DNA of 64,000 bases from a virus (taxonomy: Duplodnaviria; Caudoviricetes): positions 64,001-128,000 of IMG/VR virus record IMGVR_UViG_3300032281_000616. One strand, written 5' to 3'. The position numbers and the translations under genes were made by a program. Position 1 is the first letter of the stretch. Every line of letters starts with the position of its first letter. A model generated the notes under the pieces. The model did not search any database. It saw only the letters and a list, made by a program, of their open reading frames with translations, and was not told where the DNA came from. Of the stretch, positions 54,923 through 62,708 are shown one piece after another.

Positions 54923-54995
54923 CGCAGGTAGGTGGTCTGGTTGACCATTCCGGGTTCATATCCCGGAGAGGAGGATTCGATTTCCTCACCCGCAA
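54923..54995 (+). tRNA. tRNA-fMet (CAT), initiator type
   Basis: C1xA72 mismatch, GGG/CCC anticodon-stem pairs, TT-CAT-AT loop, TTCGA T-loop. Confidence 0.85.
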
Positions 54996-55001
54996 CATAA
55001 T

Positions 55002-55098
55002 GGGTACATAGGCTAATGCGCGAAAATGAAATAGAGCTAAGTGTATCACAGGTTGTGACGATAAGATTAGCTAGAGGTTCAACTCCTCCGTGTGCTCA
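55002..55098 (+). ncRNA. tRNA-like RNA with acceptor and T arm but a non-canonical core
   Basis: GGGTACA(T)/(G)TGTGCTC acceptor, GAGG-TTCAACT-CCTC T arm, GCTAAT/ATTAGC long internal helix. Confidence 0.5.
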
Positions 55099-55108
55099 CA
55101 ATTCAAAC

Positions 55109-55179
55109 TGGAATATCGTCTAATGGTAAGACAACGCTTTCATACGGCGAGAACGACAATTCGATTTTGTCTATTCCTA
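55109..55179 (+). tRNA. tRNA with CAT anticodon (Met or Ile2)
   Basis: GGAATA/TATTCC acceptor, GTCT/AGAC D stem, TT-CAT-AC loop, GACAA/TTGTC T stem. Confidence 0.75.
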
Positions 55180-55184
55180 CATAT

Positions 55185-55257
55185 GCGTGTTAACGATGGG
55201 ATTATGATTTGCTCGTAATGCGAATCATGAAGGTTTCGATTACCTTCAGCCGCACCA
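55185..55257 (+). ncRNA. D-armless tRNA-like RNA with 9 bp central stem and encoded CCA
   Basis: GCG(T)GTT/AGCCGC acceptor, ATGATTTGC-TCGTAAT-GCGAATCAT, GAAGGT-TTCGATT-ACCTTC, 3' ACCA. Confidence 0.55.
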
Positions 55258-55418
55258 TGAAATACATCAAAGCTATTGACTTTATTCAGTGGATATGGAA
55301 GAATACATTCAACACAGAGAAATCAAAATCACAAATTAAAAGAGATCTGGAACAAGGTTCTGTTAAATTGAATGATAGAAAAATTAAAGTGGATGATGTG
55401 TTTGAGTTTGAAGACTAA
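55257..55418 (+). CDS. S4-like RNA-binding mini-protein (53 aa)
   Basis: SKSQIKRDLEQGSVKLNDRKI..DD matches the S4 alpha-L motif. Confidence 0.7.
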   Translation: MKYIKAIDFIQWIWKNTFNTEKSKSQIKRDLEQGSVKLNDRKIKVDDVFEFED

Positions 55419-55419
55419 T

Positions 55420-55508
55420 GTGCGGGCGGCAACGATGGTGGTGTTGCATTGGTCTGTAAAACCAATCCCTACGGGTAAACAATGTGGATTCGAATTCCAC
55501 CCTTCACA
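55420..55508 (+). tRNA. tRNA-Tyr (GTA)
   Basis: TTGGT-CTGTAAA-ACCAA anticodon arm, variable arm, GTGGA-TTCGAAT-TCCAC T arm. Confidence 0.9.
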
Positions 55509-55590
55509 CCGATGTTGGATAGCACCCAACTGATTTGGATAACAAAAGCGTGATAAGTCCAAAGAGAACCAAAAATAAAACGCGCACAAA

Positions 55591-55662
55591 TCCCATGTAG
55601 CACAACAGCAGTGCGTTCGACTGTTAATCGAAAGGTTGTAGGGGCAGAACCTACCTTGGGAG
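55591..55662 (+). tRNA. tRNA-Asn (GTT)
   Basis: TCCCATG/CTTGGGA acceptor, TTCGA-CTGTTAA-TCGAA, G73. Confidence 0.88.
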
Positions 55663-55749
55663 CGAGGTTGATGTATAATTCTAACGACGACGAAGTATGA
55701 AAAAACTGTTGAATTGGCTGTGATCCGAGGCGATATGATCGGATAATAA

Positions 55750-55844
55750 CTAGGTGTTGCGATAGCTTGGTAATCGGGCCGACTTGGAATCGGTTGTGGG
55801 CAGAAAGAGTCTGTCTATCGGGGGTTCGAATCCCTCCACCTAGA
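55750..55844 (+). tRNA. tRNA with TGG (Pro) anticodon and a class II long variable arm
   Basis: Perfect CTAGGTG/CACCTAG acceptor, GCCGA-CTTGGAA-TCGGT, 25 nt variable region with an 8 bp stem, GGGGG-TTCGAAT-CCCTC T arm. Confidence 0.85.
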
Positions 55845-55845
55845 C

Positions 55846-55920
55846 GGGTGTGTAATTCAATGGTAGAATAACTCCCTTTTAAGGAGTAAGCTACAGGTTC
55901 GAGTCCTGTCACACTCACCA
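55846..55920 (+). tRNA. tRNA-Lys (TTT), CCA encoded
   Basis: GGGTGTG/CACACTC, ACTCC-CTTTTAA-GGAGT, ACAGG-TTCGAGT-CCTGT. Confidence 0.93.
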
Positions 55921-55925
55921 ATTTA

Positions 55926-56001
55926 TCCGAGTATAGCTTTAATGTAGAAGCCTCCGACTGTGAATCGGACTGTTCTGGTTCAAGTCCAGATGCGCGGACC
56001 A
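55926..56001 (+). tRNA. tRNA-His (GTG), CCA encoded, U-1:A73
   Basis: TCCGA-CTGTGAA-TCGGA anticodon arm, TCTGG-TTCAAGT-CCAGA T arm. Confidence 0.88.
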
Positions 56002-56012
56002 TAAATAAGTAT

Positions 56013-56675
56013 ATGACTTGCGATACCGTAGTAATCAGTGATATTCATCTAGGTAGTCCTGTGTGTAATAGAGAAAAAGTGTTGAAGGTTCTTTCTTTAG
56101 ACTTTAAAAGACTTATTATAAATGGTGATTTATTCGATAATTATTCATTTAAAAGATTTAATAAAAAAGACTGGGATATTCTAAGTAAACTTAGAAAATT
56201 AAGTAAAACACATAATATCATCTTTATCCATGGCAACCATGATTCGAATGGAGAATTTATGAGTGCTATTATGGGTATGGAATTTGTCGAATACTACGAA
56301 TTTGAACTCAACAATTCTAAATTCTTTTTGGAACATGGTGATAAATATGATCATTGGATCAAACATAAACCATTTATTACATGGTTCTTTACTGGGATAT
56401 ATTACTGGTTACAGAGAATCGATAAATCACATCGAATTTCCAGACTGACAAAAAAATTAAGCAAATCTTGGATTCAAGCTAAGGATATTGTTAGAACTAA
56501 GTTTGTAGAAAAGCGTGGTAAAAAATATGATGTCTTAATGGCAGGTCACACACACCATGCTGAAATCGTTGATTGTGGTGCCTGTGTTTATGTAAACAGT
56601 GGATCTTTCTGTGAAGTAAAATGTTCGTATATTAAAATTTATGAACATGGAAACTTTGAATTAATTTTCATGTGA
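56013..56675 (+). CDS. Metallophosphoesterase (LpxH/UDP-2,3-diacylglucosamine hydrolase-like)
   Basis: SDIHLG, NGDLFD, GNHD, EHGDKYD, GHTH motifs; TAAATA-N5-ATG. Confidence 0.85.
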   Translation: MTCDTVVISDIHLGSPVCNREKVLKVLSLDFKRLIINGDLFDNYSFKRFNKKDWDILSKLRKLSKTHNIIFIHGNHDSNGEFMSAIMGMEFVEYYEFELNNSKFFLEHGDKYDHWIKHKPFITWFFTGIYYWLQRIDKSHRISRLTKKLSKSWIQAKDIVRTKFVEKRGKKYDVLMAGHTHHAEIVDCGACVYVNSGSFCEVKCSYIKIYEHGNFELIFM

Positions 56676-56686
56676 TATTAAATAAC

Positions 56687-56714
56687 TTGACTTTATAAAA
56701 CACTAAGGTATGAT
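56687..56714 (+). promoter_or_regulatory. sigma70-type promoter TTGACT-N16-TATGAT
   Basis: Predicted +1 coincides with the ATG at 56721. Confidence 0.65.
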
Positions 56715-56720
56715 TATCGT

Positions 56721-56957
56721 ATGTCATCTGAACTGACCCAACACATCGAAGCTATGGGATTAATCTTCACTGAAATGGAGAGACGTAGAAAAGAAGACCC
56801 TGATGATTTCAAAGATCTCTTAGATCAAGCTGATGGTAATTTCGGAATAGCCTATGCCTTTTTATTTTTGTTGGTTGAGGATAATCTCAGGGATCGAATG
56901 ATAATAAAAAGACACGCGAAAAAACCACAACTATTAGAATGTATTTATGGAAATTGA
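56721..56957 (+). CDS. hypothetical protein
   Basis: 78 aa ORF. Confidence 0.65.
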   Translation: MSSELTQHIEAMGLIFTEMERRRKEDPDDFKDLLDQADGNFGIAYAFLFLLVEDNLRDRMIIKRHAKKPQLLECIYGN

Positions 56958-57102
56958 TCAACAACTAATGAAACAAATCATCAGCATCTTAAAATCCATG
57001 TATGACATGGCTCAAGACGAAAACTGGGATGAATCAGATGCTCAATCTTTGATTATGGATGGTGCTGATTTATACGCAGACTATTTTAGAAATAATAATT
57101 GA
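56947..57102 (+). CDS. hypothetical protein (51 aa, below the ORF-track cutoff)
   Basis: MEIDQQLMKQIISILKSMYDMAQDENWDESDAQSLIMDGADLYADYFRNNN*. Confidence 0.5.
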   Translation: MEIDQQLMKQIISILKSMYDMAQDENWDESDAQSLIMDGADLYADYFRNNN

Positions 57103-57248
57103 ATAATTTCACTTCCTACTGGTCGGGTGGTAGGCTATACGGTATGATTACTTCATTAAATCCGTTACTGTTGCGCCAATGTGAAGGGCAATCCGAAACG
57201 GCTCAGTCTCTAGCTAAAAGGTTCTGATCAAACTGATTGAGACAAACT

Positions 57249-57323
57249 GCGCCAATGATGTAATTGGTAACATAATAGACTTCCACTCTATTCTTTAGGA
57301 TTCGAGTTCCTATTGGCGCACCA
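57249..57323 (+). tRNA. tRNA-Gly (TCC), CCA encoded
   Basis: GCGCCAA/TTGGCGC, ATAGA-CTTCCAC-TCTAT, TAGGA-TTCGAGT-TCCTA. Confidence 0.92.
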
Positions 57324-57325
57324 AT

Positions 57326-57397
57326 TCTCTCTAAGCATAGATAGCGATGCTCTGGCTTTGTAACCCAGATAGGTGAGCGCAAGTCTCACAGGGAGAT
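57326..57397 (+). tRNA. tRNA-Thr (TGT)
   Basis: TCTCTCT/AGGGAGA, GCAT/ATGC D stem, TT-TGT-AA loop, GTGAG/CTCAC T stem. Confidence 0.8.
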
Positions 57398-57402
57398 CAT
57401 TT

Positions 57403-57609
57403 ATGAAAACTTTTTATAGAGTAGTTTGTGACGAACATAAACATATGTGTAAAGCTTTAATGATAGAAAATCATGATTGTTCTTTAGAAGATTCAAATAA
57501 AAATTTGGCTATTTGGTTGAAATATCACCATGGTTGTAATTTGAGATTGGTTCATAGTGAACAAGCACTAGATCAGCTATTATGCGAATATGATGATTAC
57601 ATAAAATAA
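57403..57609 (+). CDS. hypothetical protein
   Basis: MKTFYRVVCDEHK...; ATG after tRNA-Thr. Confidence 0.6.
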   Translation: MKTFYRVVCDEHKHMCKALMIENHDCSLEDSNKNLAIWLKYHHGCNLRLVHSEQALDQLLCEYDDYIK

Positions 57610-57610
57610 T

Positions 57611-57928
57611 ATGAATGTAGAAATTAAAGAAGTTTATGCTGCTTATGAGACAGTAGATGACTATGGTCGTCTCGGAAGTTGTAGAGGAATATTCACATCT
57701 AGAAGTGGGGCAGATAAAGAAGCTATTGGAATAGGGTGGTGGGATGGTATAGGATCAGTAATAGCTAAAAATGTTATAATTGTTGATGGTGTTGTTTATT
57801 TACTTGAGTCTCCAACGCCTGTAGAATTGGATGTTAGTAGTGAAGAAGCCAAAGCAGCGAGAGAAAAGATCAAAGCTTCTGCATTAGCTAAACTTAGTGT
57901 GGATGAAAGAAGGGTATTGGGGGTGTAG
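57611..57928 (+). CDS. hypothetical protein
   Basis: 105 aa ORF. Confidence 0.7.
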   Translation: MNVEIKEVYAAYETVDDYGRLGSCRGIFTSRSGADKEAIGIGWWDGIGSVIAKNVIIVDGVVYLLESPTPVELDVSSEEAKAAREKIKASALAKLSVDERRVLGV

Positions 57929-57932
57929 TAAA

Positions 57933-58031
57933 ATGTGGTGTAACTGTAAAAATAATAACATGGATAATTTAGAATATTTGTGTCCGAATTGTCACAATAT
58001 AGAAACATATAAAAATTGTTCAGTGGATTGA
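57933..58031 (+). pseudogene. HNH endonuclease remnant (32 aa)
   Basis: NNNMDNLEYLCPNCH matches the C-terminal half of the HNH motif. Confidence 0.55.
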
Positions 58032-58070
58032 AGTAATCCTGAAAGGTTGGCGCGATACCAACACTGAGCG
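58018..58070 (+). ncRNA. 53 nt mini-tRNA-like element (acceptor, one hairpin, T arm)
   Basis: GTTCAGT/ACTGAGC, GGATT-GAAGT-AATCC, GTTGG-CGCGATA-CCAAC. Confidence 0.55.
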
Positions 58071-58076
58071 GCATTA

Positions 58077-58358
58077 ATGATTGACTTCATCATAACAGCG
58101 TGTATAATACTTTTATTCATTGGAGAACCTATATACGATAAAGGACATATTATGAAATTTAGAATAGTGCAGAAACATAACGGTGTGGATTATTATTACA
58201 TAATTCAACAACGATGGCTCTTATTTTGGAAGAAGCCATGGGATCACTATCTCACCTCAAATTTTCATTCTTGTAAATGTTGTGAAAAGGCTATAGATGA
58301 TTTTGAATTGAAGTTAAAAACTAATCATGTAATTTTAGAAAAAACAATTGAGGATTAG
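58077..58358 (+). CDS. hypothetical protein
   Basis: 93 aa ORF; stop lies inside tRNA-Gln. Confidence 0.55.
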   Translation: MIDFIITACIILLFIGEPIYDKGHIMKFRIVQKHNGVDYYYIIQQRWLLFWKKPWDHYLTSNFHSCKCCEKAIDDFELKLKTNHVILEKTIED

Positions 58359-58419
58359 CATAATGGCAATGCTCCCGACTTTGACTCGGGCTATAAAGGT
58401 TCGATTCCTTTATCCTCTG
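58349..58419 (+). tRNA. tRNA-Gln (TTG)
   Basis: GAGGAT/ATCCTC, CCCGA-CTTTGAC-TCGGG, AAAGG-TTCGATT-CCTTT, G73. Confidence 0.9.
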
Positions 58420-58446
58420 CATTAAACACTAGAATATAATACTGAC

Positions 58447-60414: not shown

Positions 60415-62319
60415 TTAAAGGTTAGCGGCTTGAAAATGCATAAAGTCTATATTCCTAGCTTTACCTAAGCTAGTCCAACCCTCTGCTTCGACAATCTTCC
60501 AAAATGGTTCGTATTCAGGTCTAGCTAAAAATGCTTTATCTTTACCCCATTTCAATTGATTTCTATCTGGATCAATATCCACAGCAGCACCCCAGGAGTT
60601 TGATACAACCATACCATCCACAATAAAATTATGGGTATCTTCGACTTCGATATCAAAAACGTCCACAAGTCCTTTTTCGAGATATTTCACATCTTTGACA
60701 CTTTTGTAGATAAAATCTGGAAATAATTCCTCATATCCCATACAGTGAGATGTTCCCTTATTATGTTTAGAATCTTTCACCCTATCGAAATACATTATGT
60801 CCTCAACACATGTAAATATATTATTAGTATCGACCGAAGTAAACATCCACCCGTCTCGCCTATTACACTTAACTCCACATATTTCAGTCTCCCCACCGTT
60901 CCTCTTATCCAATTTCGAATTTCTGAATCCATGGAGAGATAGCAAAAGTCGAAGATTTAGCATTAAATTATACGAGGCACATTTGAAAGAATGTTTAACC
61001 GCCCTACTCGATTTTATTATACACCCATCCGTGTATAAATAACCTCTAATAAATGATCGTTGCTGATCGATAGTTGATGACCAAACTTCGGTGGGAATAT
61101 CTTTATCGAAAGATTTTTTATTATATGGTAAAAACCTTTCCCATATATCTCTTTTGTTTATAATGAACTGTTTTTCATTCTTTTTAATGTTCTCAGAACC
61201 AAAATAATTATCAAATAATTTTTCCGCGTGTTTTCTGATTCTATCACTTTTTGGAATCTGTATAGACATGTATGATGGCGATCCTTTTCGATGATGAATA
61301 CACCCATCACCTATAAACATGCCTAGAATTTCATACCAAGAATCCCAGTTAATATCTCCATCAACTATTGATTTTTTAAGGAAAACTATTTTATCCCCCT
61401 TAATTATATCTTTAGCTTCCACCATCTCTGTCCAATATTTGGCTCTTATTTGACCGTTTTTGTTTTTGTGTTGTATATATTCTGTCGGTTCTAATGTCTT
61501 CTTTTTCAAAACTAAAATTTTATGTTCCGGCGAACAGTCAATATCTCCACCACAAACCACGACTTTTACTAGCGGTTTTTTCCCATTCTCGAAGAAATTT
61601 TTAACCTTTTTTGTGACCAAATTTCCAGATTCGAATGAATAAACATAATCACCGATGGATATATTTTCGATAGGAACAATACCTTTTGGTGTCCACACCG
61701 GAGAACCTTTCGGTAAACAATGCTTACTCCATGAAGATCCACCGCGCATTTTTCTCACATTCAACACACCACCGAATCGATTAAGTCTTAGTTCTTTTAT
61801 TGCATCAATACCATAGTGATCTAAAGTATTTTTGAATATTCTTTGTAGAGAATCATGAACCTTTTCATGACAAGTGATTTTAGAAACCTTAGAATCTAAA
61901 TCCCAAGCTAAAAGCATTTCATATGGTAATTGTAAAGTTGTTTGGTTTGTCCCGACAGCACCATAAAACTTCACCATACTATTATAATCTTGCTTAGGCC
62001 AATCATTATAATGTTTTTTTACATCTACAGATTGAGATACATCAGGTTTCTTAACATGTAGGCTATCTTTTTTAAGCAATTGTTCATAAGCTGATTGAGT
62101 CATGTTACCCCAAAGACCATCAATATTTCCAATGTTTATATTAGATCTCACAGCAGCTACTTGAATTACACCAGTAACTAATTTTTCACCATTCCAAGTA
62201 GTTGGAAAATTGTAATATTTGAAAGCAGCTTCTTTACTTTTTTTACCAAAATCACCATCAATAGTTTCGGTGTAGAAACCAGAGTCTTTTAATATCTTTT
62301 GTGCTAATTTTTCTTTCAT
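60415..62319 (-). CDS. Endolysin: PG-binding domain plus M15 zinc peptidase, interrupted by an intein
   Basis: QKILKDSGFY..IDGDFGKKS PG-binding repeats; spliced SKH|SWGAAVD zinc motif; DFMHFQ third ligand; ATG at 62319 overlaps the upstream stop. Confidence 0.92.
   Translation of the reverse strand: MKEKLAQKILKDSGFYTETIDGDFGKKSKEAAFKYYNFPTTWNGEKLVTGVIQVAAVRSNINIGNIDGLWGNMTQSAYEQLLKKDSLHVKKPDVSQSVDVKKHYNDWPKQDYNSMVKFYGAVGTNQTTLQLPYEMLLAWDLDSKVSKITCHEKVHDSLQRIFKNTLDHYGIDAIKELRLNRFGGVLNVRKMRGGSSWSKHCLPKGSPVWTPKGIVPIENISIGDYVYSFESGNLVTKKVKNFFENGKKPLVKVVVCGGDIDCSPEHKILVLKKKTLEPTEYIQHKNKNGQIRAKYWTEMVEAKDIIKGDKIVFLKKSIVDGDINWDSWYEILGMFIGDGCIHHRKGSPSYMSIQIPKSDRIRKHAEKLFDNYFGSENIKKNEKQFIINKRDIWERFLPYNKKSFDKDIPTEVWSSTIDQQRSFIRGYLYTDGCIIKSSRAVKHSFKCASYNLMLNLRLLLSLHGFRNSKLDKRNGGETEICGVKCNRRDGWMFTSVDTNNIFTCVEDIMYFDRVKDSKHNKGTSHCMGYEELFPDFIYKSVKDVKYLEKGLVDVFDIEVEDTHNFIVDGMVVSNSWGAAVDIDPDRNQLKWGKDKAFLARPEYEPFWKIVEAEGWTSLGKARNIDFMHFQAANL
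60598..61719 (-). mobile_element. 374 aa intein with LAGLIDADG endonuclease domain
   Basis: Starts CLPKGSPVWTP; block B SPEH; ILGMFIGDG and FIRGYLYTDG; ends HNFIVDGMVVSN followed by Ser. Confidence 0.95.
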
Positions 62320-62708
62320 CTGAATTCTGGTTGTTCTGTTTTCTCTACCCAAGATAAAGGAGCATAACTTGGATCATTTGAATATTTATTTACATACTCC
62401 AATACGATATCTTTATTTACTATTGTTTCGTCTATTGTAACTGATGTGAGTCTTTTAGTCTCTTCTTGAACTTCTGTTTCTCTAATAGATTTCACACTAT
62501 AAGCCTTAACCCAAGAATCACCAGATGCTCCTAGAATAAAGAGTGATCCAATTGCTAAGAAAAACTGCATATACGGAGTTGGGTCGAATTGAGCACCCAT
62601 GTATAAGTTTACAAATAATACAGTAAATGCGCAACCAATAAAGATGGCACTCCATATTTGACGAACTGACTTCATAAATTCTGTTTTATCTAGGGGATCT
62701 CTTTTCAT
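62316..62708 (-). CDS. Holin-like membrane protein (2 TM)
   Basis: Two hydrophobic segments and a charged C-terminus, directly upstream of the endolysin. Confidence 0.55.
   Translation of the reverse strand: MKRDPLDKTEFMKSVRQIWSAIFIGCAFTVLFVNLYMGAQFDPTPYMQFFLAIGSLFILGASGDSWVKAYSVKSIRETEVQEETKRLTSVTIDETIVNKDIVLEYVNKYSNDPSYAPLSWVEKTEQPEFR

What the first reader, a model, noticed from the sequence alone, without database searches (positions are those of the whole stretch)
55750..55844. tRNA with a proline (UGG) anticodon on a class II long-variable-arm body
Seen: a well-formed 95 nt tRNA with anticodon TGG, A37, C1:G72, A73 and a 25 nt variable region forming an 8 bp stem (TGGGCAGA-AAGAG-TCTGTCTA). 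Established: long variable arms are typical of Ser, Leu, Sec and bacterial Tyr tRNAs. tRNA-Pro is normally class I with G37 (m1G37, TrmD-dependent frame maintenance). ProRS reads G72, A73 and G35/G36, while SerRS and LeuRS largely ignore the anticodon and read the arm or tertiary shape (LeuRS also reads A73). Inference: either a TrmD-independent, nuclease-evading tRNA-Pro, or a tRNA that inserts Leu/Ser at Pro codons (programmed mistranslation).
Basis: partly seen in the sequence, partly recalled or inferred. Interest (0 to 1): 0.75.

Follow-up and report, generated by a model that had tools for sequence, protein, structure and literature searches.

The report
Phage proline tRNA with long extra arm
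This freshwater jumbo phage carries a real proline tRNA built with the long extra arm that textbooks reserve for leucine, serine and tyrosine tRNAs, and it belongs to a conserved, almost purely viral family that I could not find described in print.

Summary
Window 55750-55844 (+) is a 95-nt tRNA with anticodon UGG, C1:G72, A73, A37 and a 25-nt variable region with an 8-bp stem.

It is neither an assembly error nor a lone mutant. Contigs from two studies keep TGG. An anticodon-blind search returned only homologs with the loop CUUGGAA. Six close homologs show double compensatory changes in 16 of 29 base pairs, including the extra arm.

A wider search found 36 distinct sequences in 53 IMG/VR contigs. 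All have C1:G72, a 7/5 acceptor/T geometry and the same arm layout. Only five turned up in 185,579 species genomes, all inside dense tRNA arrays.

The acceptor end and D loop carry the bacterial ProRS identity set. The SerRS, LeuRS and TyrRS acceptor and core marks are absent. CCA is the phage's main proline codon, and its positions align with Pro in homologs as often as CCT positions do.

Best reading (about 0.6): a ProRS-charged decoder that cannot receive m1G37. The role of the arm is not shown. Mistranslation is disfavoured but not excluded.

This scan noted the same kind of tRNA before on other DNA (e1-4036837). I found no paper describing it.

The parts
55750..55844 (+). Whole tRNA(UGG), 95 nt up to the discriminator A73; CCA not encoded
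   Evidence: ARAGORN; fold; covariation in homologs
55750..55756 (+). Acceptor stem, 5' strand (C1 at 55750); pairs with 55837-55843 (G72 at 55843)
   Evidence: Seven Watson-Crick pairs. C1:G72 is invariant in 36 of 36 family sequences while pairs 2-7 vary (G72 and A73 were fixed by that search pattern, C1 was not)
55757..55759 (+). Three-nucleotide connector UUG (normally two nucleotides, 8 and 9)
   Evidence: Invariant in the six close homologs; the 4-bp D stem that follows covaries (CG to AU, GC to CG)
55760..55776 (+). D arm: 4-bp stem CGAU/AUCG and 9-nt loop AGCUUGGUA (G15, U17a, G18, G19)
   Evidence: I recall the same loop sequence in E. coli tRNA-Pro (own knowledge, not checked here)
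55778..55794 (+). Anticodon arm: stem GCCGA/UCGGU, loop CUUGGAA; anticodon UGG at 55785-55787; A37 at 55788
   Evidence: Four of five stem pairs covary and the loop is invariant. Every tRNA found by the anticodon-blind search has CUUGGAA
55795..55819 (+). Variable region, 25 nt: U44, G45, 8-bp stem (9 bp if G45 pairs with U at 55818), loop AAGAG, C48 at 55819
   Evidence: Four of eight stem pairs covary. Across the family the layout U44 / stem starting at G45 / C48 and the core G.U, C-G, A-U recur
55820..55836 (+). T arm GGGGG-UUCGAAU-CCCUC (G49 first)
55844..55844 (+). Discriminator A73
   Evidence: invariant in close homologs
55846..55920 (+). tRNA-Lys(UUU), starting one base after the C that follows A73; the two genes form a head-to-tail unit
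54923..58420 (+). tRNA gene cluster holding the tRNA: Met, a second CAU tRNA, Tyr, Asn, Pro, Lys, His, Gly, Thr, Gln
   Evidence: ARAGORN together with Rfam

Best explanation
This is a functional elongator tRNA-Pro(UGG) of a 202-kb freshwater phage. The host prolyl-tRNA synthetase most likely charges it through C1:G72, A73, G35 and G36 (with G15:C48, U17a and G49 also present). It would read CCA, and probably other CCN codons, as proline. It is the phage's only proline tRNA. It belongs to a conserved, essentially viral family that combines a proline acceptor end and anticodon with a serine-style layout of the anticodon loop (C32, A37, A38) and a long, sequence-conserved variable arm. Shown: the gene is real, is under purifying selection for the five-helix fold, keeps the proline marks, lacks the Ser, Leu and Tyr acceptor and core marks, and serves a genome in which CCA behaves as a normal proline codon. 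Inferred: charging by ProRS, and independence from TrmD because A37 cannot be methylated to m1G37. Least certain (about 1 in 4): the extra arm plus the altered anticodon loop make a hardened copy that keeps working when host tRNA-Pro is cut or under-modified during infection, or mark it for a phage factor.
For: The structure and anticodon are confirmed.

Contigs of three runs from two studies keep TGG. The only changes inside the tRNA are C55801T (C-G to U-G in the arm) and C55839T (G5-C68 to G5.U68).

An anticodon-blind pattern search in IMG/VR and JGI metagenomes returned seven distinct homologs, all with the loop CUUGGAA; the other hits are not tRNAs.

Family census: 36 distinct sequences in 53 IMG/VR contigs, C1:G72 in 36 of 36, C48 in 36 of 36.

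In the fetched loci, 35 of 42 long tRNA(UGG) and 68 of 78 normal tRNA-Pro(UGG) have C1:G72 with A73, against 0 of 183 tRNA-Ser with C1:G72.

The ProRS determinants (G72, A73, G35, G36, G15:C48, U17a, G49; C1-G72 strong in E. coli) are taken from PMC9976931.

The phage has no ProRS/SerRS-type core and no TrmD, and it does have a CCA-adding enzyme and an RNA ligase.

No other Pro-anticodon tRNA appears in the complete genome, even at relaxed thresholds.

CCA is the main Pro codon, at 17.1 per 1000 codons against 10.7 for CCT. CCA positions align with Pro in homologs 61% of the time, against 59% for CCT, and Ser and Leu are not among the six commonest substitutes for CCA.

The other phage tRNAs (Lys UUU, Gly UCC, Thr UGU, Gln UUG) also read A-ending codons that are frequent in this 33% GC genome.
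Against: No charging data exist.

Position 37 is A. The review reports that loss of G37 methylation lowers prolylation in E. coli.

The anticodon arm and T arm are identical to those of a bacterial tRNA-Ser(CGA) found in L021, and the arm layout is the same.

In my crude isotype profiles, with the variable arm removed and the anticodon masked, the body scores Ser 30.5, Tyr 29.2 and Pro 26.4 bits. So the body alone does not say Pro.

SerRS relies mainly on the long arm and ignores the anticodon, so some serylation is possible.

Fourteen of 26 distinct family members examined have a normal tRNA-Pro in the fetched flank, seven of them directly adjacent. This suggests the long form does something the normal form does not.
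Confidence: 0.6

Rival explanations
1. The tRNA is a serine-charged or dual Pro/Ser-charged tRNA. SerRS binds the serine-style long arm and loads Ser, so the phage causes Pro-to-Ser mistranslation at CCN codons, either proteome-wide or as a stress or host shut-off device.
For: SerRS identity rests mainly on the variable arm and ignores the anticodon, and tRNA-Ser with a UGG anticodon stays serylated in yeast (PMC9976931). The arm layout (U44, stem from G45, single C48), the anticodon loop C32/A37/A38 and the T arm match a real tRNA-Ser. Many family members even carry a Ser-type D arm. The crude body profile ranks Ser first. The long form often sits beside a normal tRNA-Pro.
Against: G1-C72 and G2-C71 are conserved in most bacterial tRNA-Ser and G73 is a determinant. 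Here C1:G72 and A73 are invariant and pair 2:71 varies freely. None of 183 tRNA-Ser in the same loci has C1:G72. CCA is the phage's commonest Pro codon and behaves as Pro in evolution, so the phage would damage its own proteins. In this phage it is the only tRNA-Pro.
Confidence: 0.15
2. The RNA is a tRNA-shaped molecule that does not decode. It could be a decoy that soaks up a host tRNA-directed nuclease or sensor, or a handle or regulator bound by a phage protein through the sequence-conserved arm.
For: The arm core is conserved in sequence (G.U at pair 5 in 26 of 31, C-G at pair 6 in 26 of 31, A-U at pair 7 in 24 of 28) and the arm loop is mostly purine-rich, while other stems drift. That pattern suggests something reads the bases. 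The phage encodes tRNA repair and maturation enzymes, which hints at conflict over tRNAs.
Against: Every feature needed for translation is kept: a 7-nt anticodon loop with U33, the T loop UUCGAAU, G18 and G19, a 7/5 acceptor/T geometry, and the full ProRS mark set. The anticodon matches the phage's main Pro codon.
Confidence: 0.1
3. The tRNA is charged by LeuRS (A73 plus a class II shape) and inserts Leu at Pro codons.
For: A73 is the key E. coli LeuRS determinant, and LeuRS ignores the anticodon and the arm sequence.
Against: The other E. coli LeuRS elements are missing. The Levitt pair is G15:C48, not A15:U48, and there is no A20a in the 9-nt D loop. Real Leu-type bodies with UGG exist and look different, with G1:C72 (L045). 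The codon evidence is the same as for the serine rival.
Confidence: 0.03
4. The gene is an artefact or a decaying copy: an assembly error in the anticodon, or a recently mutated tRNA-Ser(UGA) or tRNA-Leu(UAG) with no function.
For: A single base separates UGG from UGA or UAG. Rfam does not call the gene at gathering score.
Against: Independent assemblies agree on TGG. All homologs found without regard to the anticodon carry CUUGGAA. Compensatory changes occur in all helices.
Confidence: 0.02

Closest known systems
Bacterial and phage class I tRNA-Pro(UGG)
   Same: C1:G72, A73, G35, G36, G15:C48, U17a, G49, the 9-nt D loop AGCUUGGUA, 7/5 acceptor/T geometry, and location in a phage tRNA cluster.
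   Different: It has a 25-nt variable region with an 8-9 bp stem instead of 4-5 nt. Position 37 is A, whereas 37 of 46 normal phage tRNA-Pro have G37. C32 replaces the usual U32. The acceptor-to-D connector has 3 nt. It falls below the Rfam tRNA gathering score.
Bacterial class II tRNA-Ser (UGA/CGA isoacceptors)
   Same: A long variable arm with the same layout (U44, stem from G45, single C48), an anticodon loop of the form CU-NGA-AA, and an anticodon stem and T arm identical to a tRNA-Ser(CGA) in L021.
   Different: The anticodon is UGG, not NGA. It has C1:G72, U2:A71 and A73 instead of G1:C72, G2:C71 and G73. In this subtype the D arm is Pro-like, not Ser-like. The arm is longer and conserved in sequence.
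Allo-tRNAs and irregular tRNAs (Mukai et al. 2017, PMC5389517)
   Same: They are long-armed tRNAs whose anticodon does not belong to Leu, Ser or Tyr, and they occur in metagenomes and phages.
   Different: Allo-tRNAs have an 8/4 or 9/3 acceptor/T geometry and serine identity. This tRNA is 7/5 with proline marks. The paper mentions no proline case.
Transposon-borne Leu-type tRNAs with UGG anticodon
   Same: A class II body with anticodon UGG.
   Different: Those have a Leu-type body with G1:C72 and ride on insertion sequences in soil bacteria. One such body turned up here (L045), and it differs in acceptor, D arm and variable arm.
Engineered tRNA-Ser(UGG) mistranslators in yeast (cited in PMC9976931)
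   Same: A serine-type arm with a proline anticodon.
   Different: Those keep the serine acceptor end and are serylated. Here the acceptor end has been changed to the proline set.
Phage tRNAs with anticodon-loop changes that escape tRNA nucleases (van den Berg et al. 2023, PMC10264068)
   Same: A phage copy of a tRNA with altered anticodon-loop positions (32 and 37) compared with the host-like version.
   Different: That paper does not mention variable arms or tRNA-Pro. No nuclease target is known here.

Membership tests
Bacterial-type tRNA-Pro (ProRS substrate) | C1:G72 first pair | tested here: met
   invariant in close homologs and in 36 of 36 family sequences
Bacterial-type tRNA-Pro (ProRS substrate) | Discriminator A73 | tested here: met
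Bacterial-type tRNA-Pro (ProRS substrate) | G35 and G36 in the anticodon | tested here: met
   all homologs from the anticodon-blind search have them
Bacterial-type tRNA-Pro (ProRS substrate) | G15:C48 Levitt pair, U17a, G49 | tested here: met
   Read from the cloverleaf: D loop A14-G15-C16-U17-U17a-G18-G19, C at 55819, G at 55820.
Bacterial-type tRNA-Pro (ProRS substrate) | G37 (m1G37, made by TrmD) | tested here: not met
   A at 55788; A37 in the whole CUUGGAA family. Nine of 46 normal phage tRNA-Pro also have A37
Bacterial-type tRNA-Pro (ProRS substrate) | Short (class I) variable loop | tested here: not met
   The variable region is 25 nt
Bacterial-type tRNA-Pro (ProRS substrate) | Actual prolylation | not testable with these tools
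   Needs an aminoacylation assay
Bacterial tRNA-Ser (SerRS substrate) | Long variable arm in serine orientation | tested here: inconclusive
   The length and the unpaired flanks match a real tRNA-Ser. The D loop lacks the 20a/20b insertions of tRNA-Ser in this subtype. The three-dimensional orientation cannot be computed here
Bacterial tRNA-Ser (SerRS substrate) | G1:C72, G2:C71 and G73 | tested here: not met
   The tRNA has C1:G72, U2:A71 and A73. None of 183 tRNA-Ser in the same loci has C1:G72
Bacterial tRNA-Leu (LeuRS substrate) | A73 together with A15:U48 and A20a, with G18 G19 placed as in tRNA-Leu | tested here: not met
   Only A73 is present. The pair is G15:C48 and there is no 20a
Bacterial tRNA-Tyr | G34, U35, G1:C72, A73 | tested here: not met
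   The anticodon is UGG and the first pair is C1:G72
Allo-tRNA (Mukai 2017) | 8/4 or 9/3 acceptor/T-stem geometry | tested here: not met
   The geometry is 7/5, and both stems covary in that register
tRNA-Sec (RF01852) | Rfam gathering score; 8/5 geometry; UCA anticodon | tested here: not met
   29.6 bits against a cut-off of 47
Long-armed phage tRNAs with a spare anticodon loop in the arm (idea from e1-1035274 and e1-3634525) | The arm loop shows the cognate anticodon (here NGG) | tested here: not met
   The arm loops include AAGAG, UAAGUGU, ACAGUAG, AAAGGUA and CUGUU; there is no conserved NGG

The most novel reading that the evidence does not exclude
The long arm is a transplantable, sequence-read module. 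Under this reading, phages graft it, or other arms, onto otherwise ordinary tRNAs for Pro and, in related clusters, Gln, Thr, Glu, Ile, Asn, Lys, Met, His and Gly. The result is a second, hardened set of decoders that host tRNA-directed defences, or the phage's own attack on host tRNAs, cannot disable, while host synthetases still charge them. The proline version also escapes dependence on m1G37.
Probability: 0.25. Interest if true: 0.8.

Novelty: new variant of a known kind. Interest (0 to 1): 0.6.

Why it matters
Textbooks restrict the long variable arm to Leu, Ser, Tyr (in bacteria) and Sec tRNAs, and treat m1G37 as a near-universal safeguard of tRNA-Pro. A conserved viral family breaks both rules while keeping the ProRS marks. 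If ProRS does charge it, ProRS and the ribosome tolerate a class II proline tRNA. The family also offers a natural test of what the arm and m1G37 are for, and it points to an unstudied layer of the phage-host conflict over tRNAs. On the practical side, Rfam-based annotation misses these genes. They might also serve as new scaffolds for engineered tRNAs.

Tried and rejected
- GenBank phage records (50,697): no match to the cluster or to either subtype of the tRNA. The helicase gene next to the cluster has only remote hits, so no cultured relative or host is known.
- The 18 loci found through the phosphoesterase gene at about 66% identity hold no tRNAs, so they were of no use for comparison.
- Expression: no RNA holder listed among public runs.
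- The promoter and terminator scan is at chance level.
- Pfam on nine small ORFs in and around the cluster gave only a sub-threshold S4 hit and a sub-threshold DUF7130 hit.
- The crude isotype profiles were indecisive for this tRNA. The models for Arg, Ile and Val failed to build, so those columns are void.
- The idea that the arm loop shows a spare proline anticodon was rejected.
- The arm does not copy the arms of tRNA-Ser genes in the same phages.
- Possible pairing of the arm loop AAG with CUU of the D or anticodon loop was dropped, because Ser-type members have other loops.
- Some ARAGORN 'long tRNA-Pro' calls are wrong. L049, L128 and L141 are tRNA-Ser(GGA), and L045 has a Leu-type body.
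- Literature searches and two targeted look-ups in papers found no description of long-armed tRNA-Pro. The library searched is not complete.

Full report
**What is there.** The window is bases 64001-128000 of a 202,205-bp IMG/VR virus record with direct terminal repeats, rated complete. Its GC content is about 33%.
- a 7-bp acceptor stem with C1:G72, and A73;
- anticodon stem GCCGA/UCGGU with loop CUUGGAA (UGG, A37, A38);
- a 25-nt variable region with an 8-bp stem and loop AAGAG;
- T arm GGGGG-UUCGAAU-CCCUC.

The acceptor and D stems are joined by three nucleotides (UUG), followed by a 4-bp D stem and the 9-nt loop AGCUUGGUA. CCA is not encoded: one C follows A73, and tRNA-Lys(UUU) starts at 55846.

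The gene lies in a cluster of about ten tRNAs (54923-58420). ARAGORN and Rfam each miss some of them. Rfam does not reach gathering score on this one (26.7 bits for tRNA, 29.6 for tRNA-Sec).

**Not an error and not a lone mutant.** Logan contigs of three runs from two studies cover the gene and keep TGG. One carries C55801T, which turns a C-G pair of the arm into U-G. Another carries C55839T, which turns G5-C68 into G5.U68. A near-identical phage contig (L002/L022) shows the first change.

I then searched IMG/VR and the JGI metagenomes with a pattern made only of the D arm and flanking bases, leaving the anticodon loop free. Every hit that is a tRNA has the loop CUUGGAA, giving seven distinct homologs. 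The remaining hits are coding DNA.

On six gap-free homologs, 98.3% of cells pair. Sixteen of 29 pairs change on both sides, including four of eight pairs of the variable stem and two of four of the D stem. None of 500 shuffles reaches this, and slid controls give 0-2 such pairs. Invariant through all this are C1:G72, A73, the UUG connector, the D loop, the anticodon loop, U44, G45, C48, and A-A-G-N-G in the arm loop.

**A family.** A looser pattern (CUUGGAA, a long gap, the T loop, then G72 and A73) gave 60 stretches in IMG/VR. After checking acceptor and anticodon stems, 36 distinct sequences of 93-96 nt remain, from 53 loci. Across them:
- C1:G72 in 36 of 36, while acceptor pairs 2-7 each take three to five forms;
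- C48 in 36 of 36, and U44 in 32 of 36;
- a variable stem of 8-9 bp in 25 of 36, starting at G45;
- a sequence-conserved stem core: G.U at pair 5 in 26 of 31, C-G at pair 6 in 26 of 31, A-U at pair 7 in 24 of 28.

Two D-arm types occur. One is the Pro-like type of this window (eight sequences). The other is a Ser-like type (GAG..GGUU.AA; 20 or more sequences). The two types share acceptor, T arm and variable arm. For example, L322 has nearly this window's acceptor and T arm together with a Ser-type D arm. I therefore treat them as one family with exchanged arms.

The same pattern in one genome for each of 185,579 prokaryote species gave only five such tRNAs. All five lie in dense arrays of tRNA genes (11-17 tRNAs within 8 kb for four of them), and one is in a Cerasicoccus frondis isolate. 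None of 50,697 GenBank phage records matches.

A separate set of long tRNA-Pro has a normal body, the loop UUUGGGA (G37) and a 16-22 nt variable region.

**Which amino acid.** According to the identity review PMC9976931:
- E. coli ProRS reads G72, A73, G35, G36, the G15:C48 pair, U17a and G49, and C1-G72 is a strong determinant.
- Bacterial tRNA-Ser keeps G1-C72 and G2-C71, uses G73, and depends mainly on the arm.
- E. coli LeuRS needs A73, A15-U48, G18 G19 and A20a.
- TyrRS needs U35.

This tRNA has every listed ProRS element except G37. It has none of the Ser acceptor marks, only A73 of the Leu set, and not U35.

In the fetched loci, C1:G72 with A73 occurs in 35 of 42 long tRNA(UGG) and in 68 of 78 normal tRNA-Pro(UGG). 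C1:G72 occurs in 0 of 183 tRNA-Ser.

The phage has no class II synthetase core of the Pro/Ser type and no TrmD, so charging must be done by the host.

Against a simple proline reading stand three points. The anticodon arm and T arm are identical to those of a bacterial tRNA-Ser(CGA). The arm layout is that of tRNA-Ser. My crude isotype profiles, with the arm removed and the anticodon masked, rank Ser 30.5, Tyr 29.2 and Pro 26.4 bits. The molecule therefore looks like a serine-style frame whose ProRS-read and SerRS-read positions have all been set to proline.

**Codon evidence.** This is the only Pro-anticodon tRNA in the complete genome, even at relaxed thresholds.
- CCA is the phage's commonest Pro codon: 17.1 per 1000 codons, against CCT 10.7, CCC 4.1 and CCG 3.3.
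- In 42 phage ORFs with homologs of at most 90% identity in other fetched loci, 174 CCA positions align with Pro 61% of the time.
- The figures for the other Pro codons are 59% for CCT, 52% for CCC and 48% for CCG.
- Ser and Leu are not among the six commonest substitutes for CCA.

CCA is thus an ordinary proline codon here, and loading Ser or Leu on this tRNA would hurt the phage's own proteins. The other phage tRNAs (Lys UUU, Gly UCC, Thr UGU, Gln UUG) likewise serve frequent A-ending codons. That is the usual pattern for tRNAs that supplement decoding.

**What the arm is for.** This is not shown. Four observations bear on it:
- Fourteen of 26 distinct family members examined have a normal tRNA-Pro in the fetched flank, seven of them directly adjacent. 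The normal copies mostly have the host-like loop UUUGGGA.
- Related clusters hold long and normal versions of the same anticodon for Gln, Thr, Glu, Ile, Asn and Lys. They also hold long Met, His and Gly tRNAs, each with its own short arm.
- The proline arm is conserved in sequence, which suggests that something reads it.
- The phage encodes a CCA-adding enzyme with an HD domain and an RNA ligase, and a metallophosphoesterase gene sits inside the cluster. These are tools of tRNA maturation and repair.

Together these fit the published idea that phage tRNAs diverge to escape tRNA-directed defences (PMC10264068; PMC13056530). They extend that idea from anticodon-loop changes to a whole extra arm. 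I rate this reading at about one in four.

A37 means the tRNA cannot carry m1G37. However, A37 also occurs in 9 of 46 normal phage tRNA-Pro, and G37 occurs in other long forms. So the arm and A37 are separable traits.

**Comparison and novelty.** The tRNA works like a tRNA-Pro and meets most tRNA-Pro identity tests, but it fails the class I and G37 criteria. It is not an allo-tRNA, because it is 7/5 and not 8/4 or 9/3; that paper has no proline case. It is not a tRNA-Sec, and it is not the Leu-type UGG tRNA of transposons. Nine literature look-ups found no description; the library is incomplete.

This scan has noted the same kind of tRNA on another genome (e1-4036837) and long-armed Asn tRNAs in T5-like phages. 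Those are unchecked AI notes. What I tested here agrees with them on existence and conservation. It does not support carrying the 'spare anticodon in the arm' idea over to proline.

**Verdict.** The tRNA is a member of a conserved viral family of long-armed tRNA-Pro(UGG) with A37. It is most likely a ProRS-charged decoder. The function of the arm is open.

Noticed in passing
L279 31-5245; L343; L347; L274 344-6503; L340 1366-2921; L057 4887-4975: Related phage tRNA clusters hold long (81-92 nt) versions of tRNAs that are normally short: Gln(UUG), Thr(UGU), Glu(UUC), Ile(GAU), Asn(GUU), Lys(UUU), Met(CAU) and Gly(UCC). They often sit beside a normal-length copy with the same anticodon. Their arms are short hairpins, commonly with GNRA-like loops, and differ from the proline arm.
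   Followed up: partly
window 55927-56001 versus L002 5030-5172: In the near-identical phage contig L002, and in run X2, the normal 75-nt tRNA-His of this window is cut short. An 87-nt tRNA-His with a long variable region follows it. X2 shows 893 other letters replacing 55955-55976.
   Followed up: partly
window 55109-55179, 55591-55662, 57326-57397: Rfam finds three tRNAs that ARAGORN misses at default settings: a second CAU tRNA, tRNA-Asn(GUU) with an odd T loop, and tRNA-Thr(UGU) with a C.C mismatch in the anticodon stem.
   Followed up: no
G000:C1:149236-149310 (-), outside the window: A weak tRNA-like gene (33 bits). It has a good T arm, but its D arm and anticodon arm are poorly formed. 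ARAGORN at low threshold calls it Gly(acc).
   Followed up: partly
window 56013-56675 (+); G000:C1:130838-132367 (-); G000:C1:182176-183573 (-): A calcineurin-like metallophosphoesterase gene lies inside the tRNA cluster. Elsewhere in the phage there is a CCA-adding enzyme with an HD domain and an RNA ligase with a PHA02142 OB fold. Together these look like a tRNA maturation and repair kit.
   Followed up: partly
window 60415-62352 (-): A 645-aa ORF with an intein splicing domain and a LAGLIDADG endonuclease domain. An intein appears to interrupt a host protein that I did not identify.
   Followed up: no
L142, L154, L156, L159, L168, L170, L171, L176, L215, L217, L227: A second kind of long phage tRNA-Pro(UGG): a normal proline-type body with loop UUUGGGA (G37) and a 16-22 nt variable region. 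Some have A1:U72 instead of C1:G72.
   Followed up: partly
L288 2407-2500 (Cerasicoccus frondis NBRC 105381 contig3); L280, L284, L295, L322: The few cellular records with this tRNA family hold it inside dense tRNA gene arrays (11-17 tRNAs within 8 kb for L280, L284, L288 and L295). These may be prophages or phage contigs binned into MAGs.
   Followed up: no
L045 4866-4949 (-): A Leu-type body (G1:C72, A73, Leu-like D arm) with anticodon UGG on a viral contig. It resembles the transposon-borne Leu-type UGG tRNAs noted earlier by this scan.
   Followed up: no
window 55209-55418 (+): A small ORF between the second CAU tRNA and tRNA-Tyr, with a sub-threshold S4-domain hit (16.4 bits against a cut-off of 22.8).
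   Followed up: no
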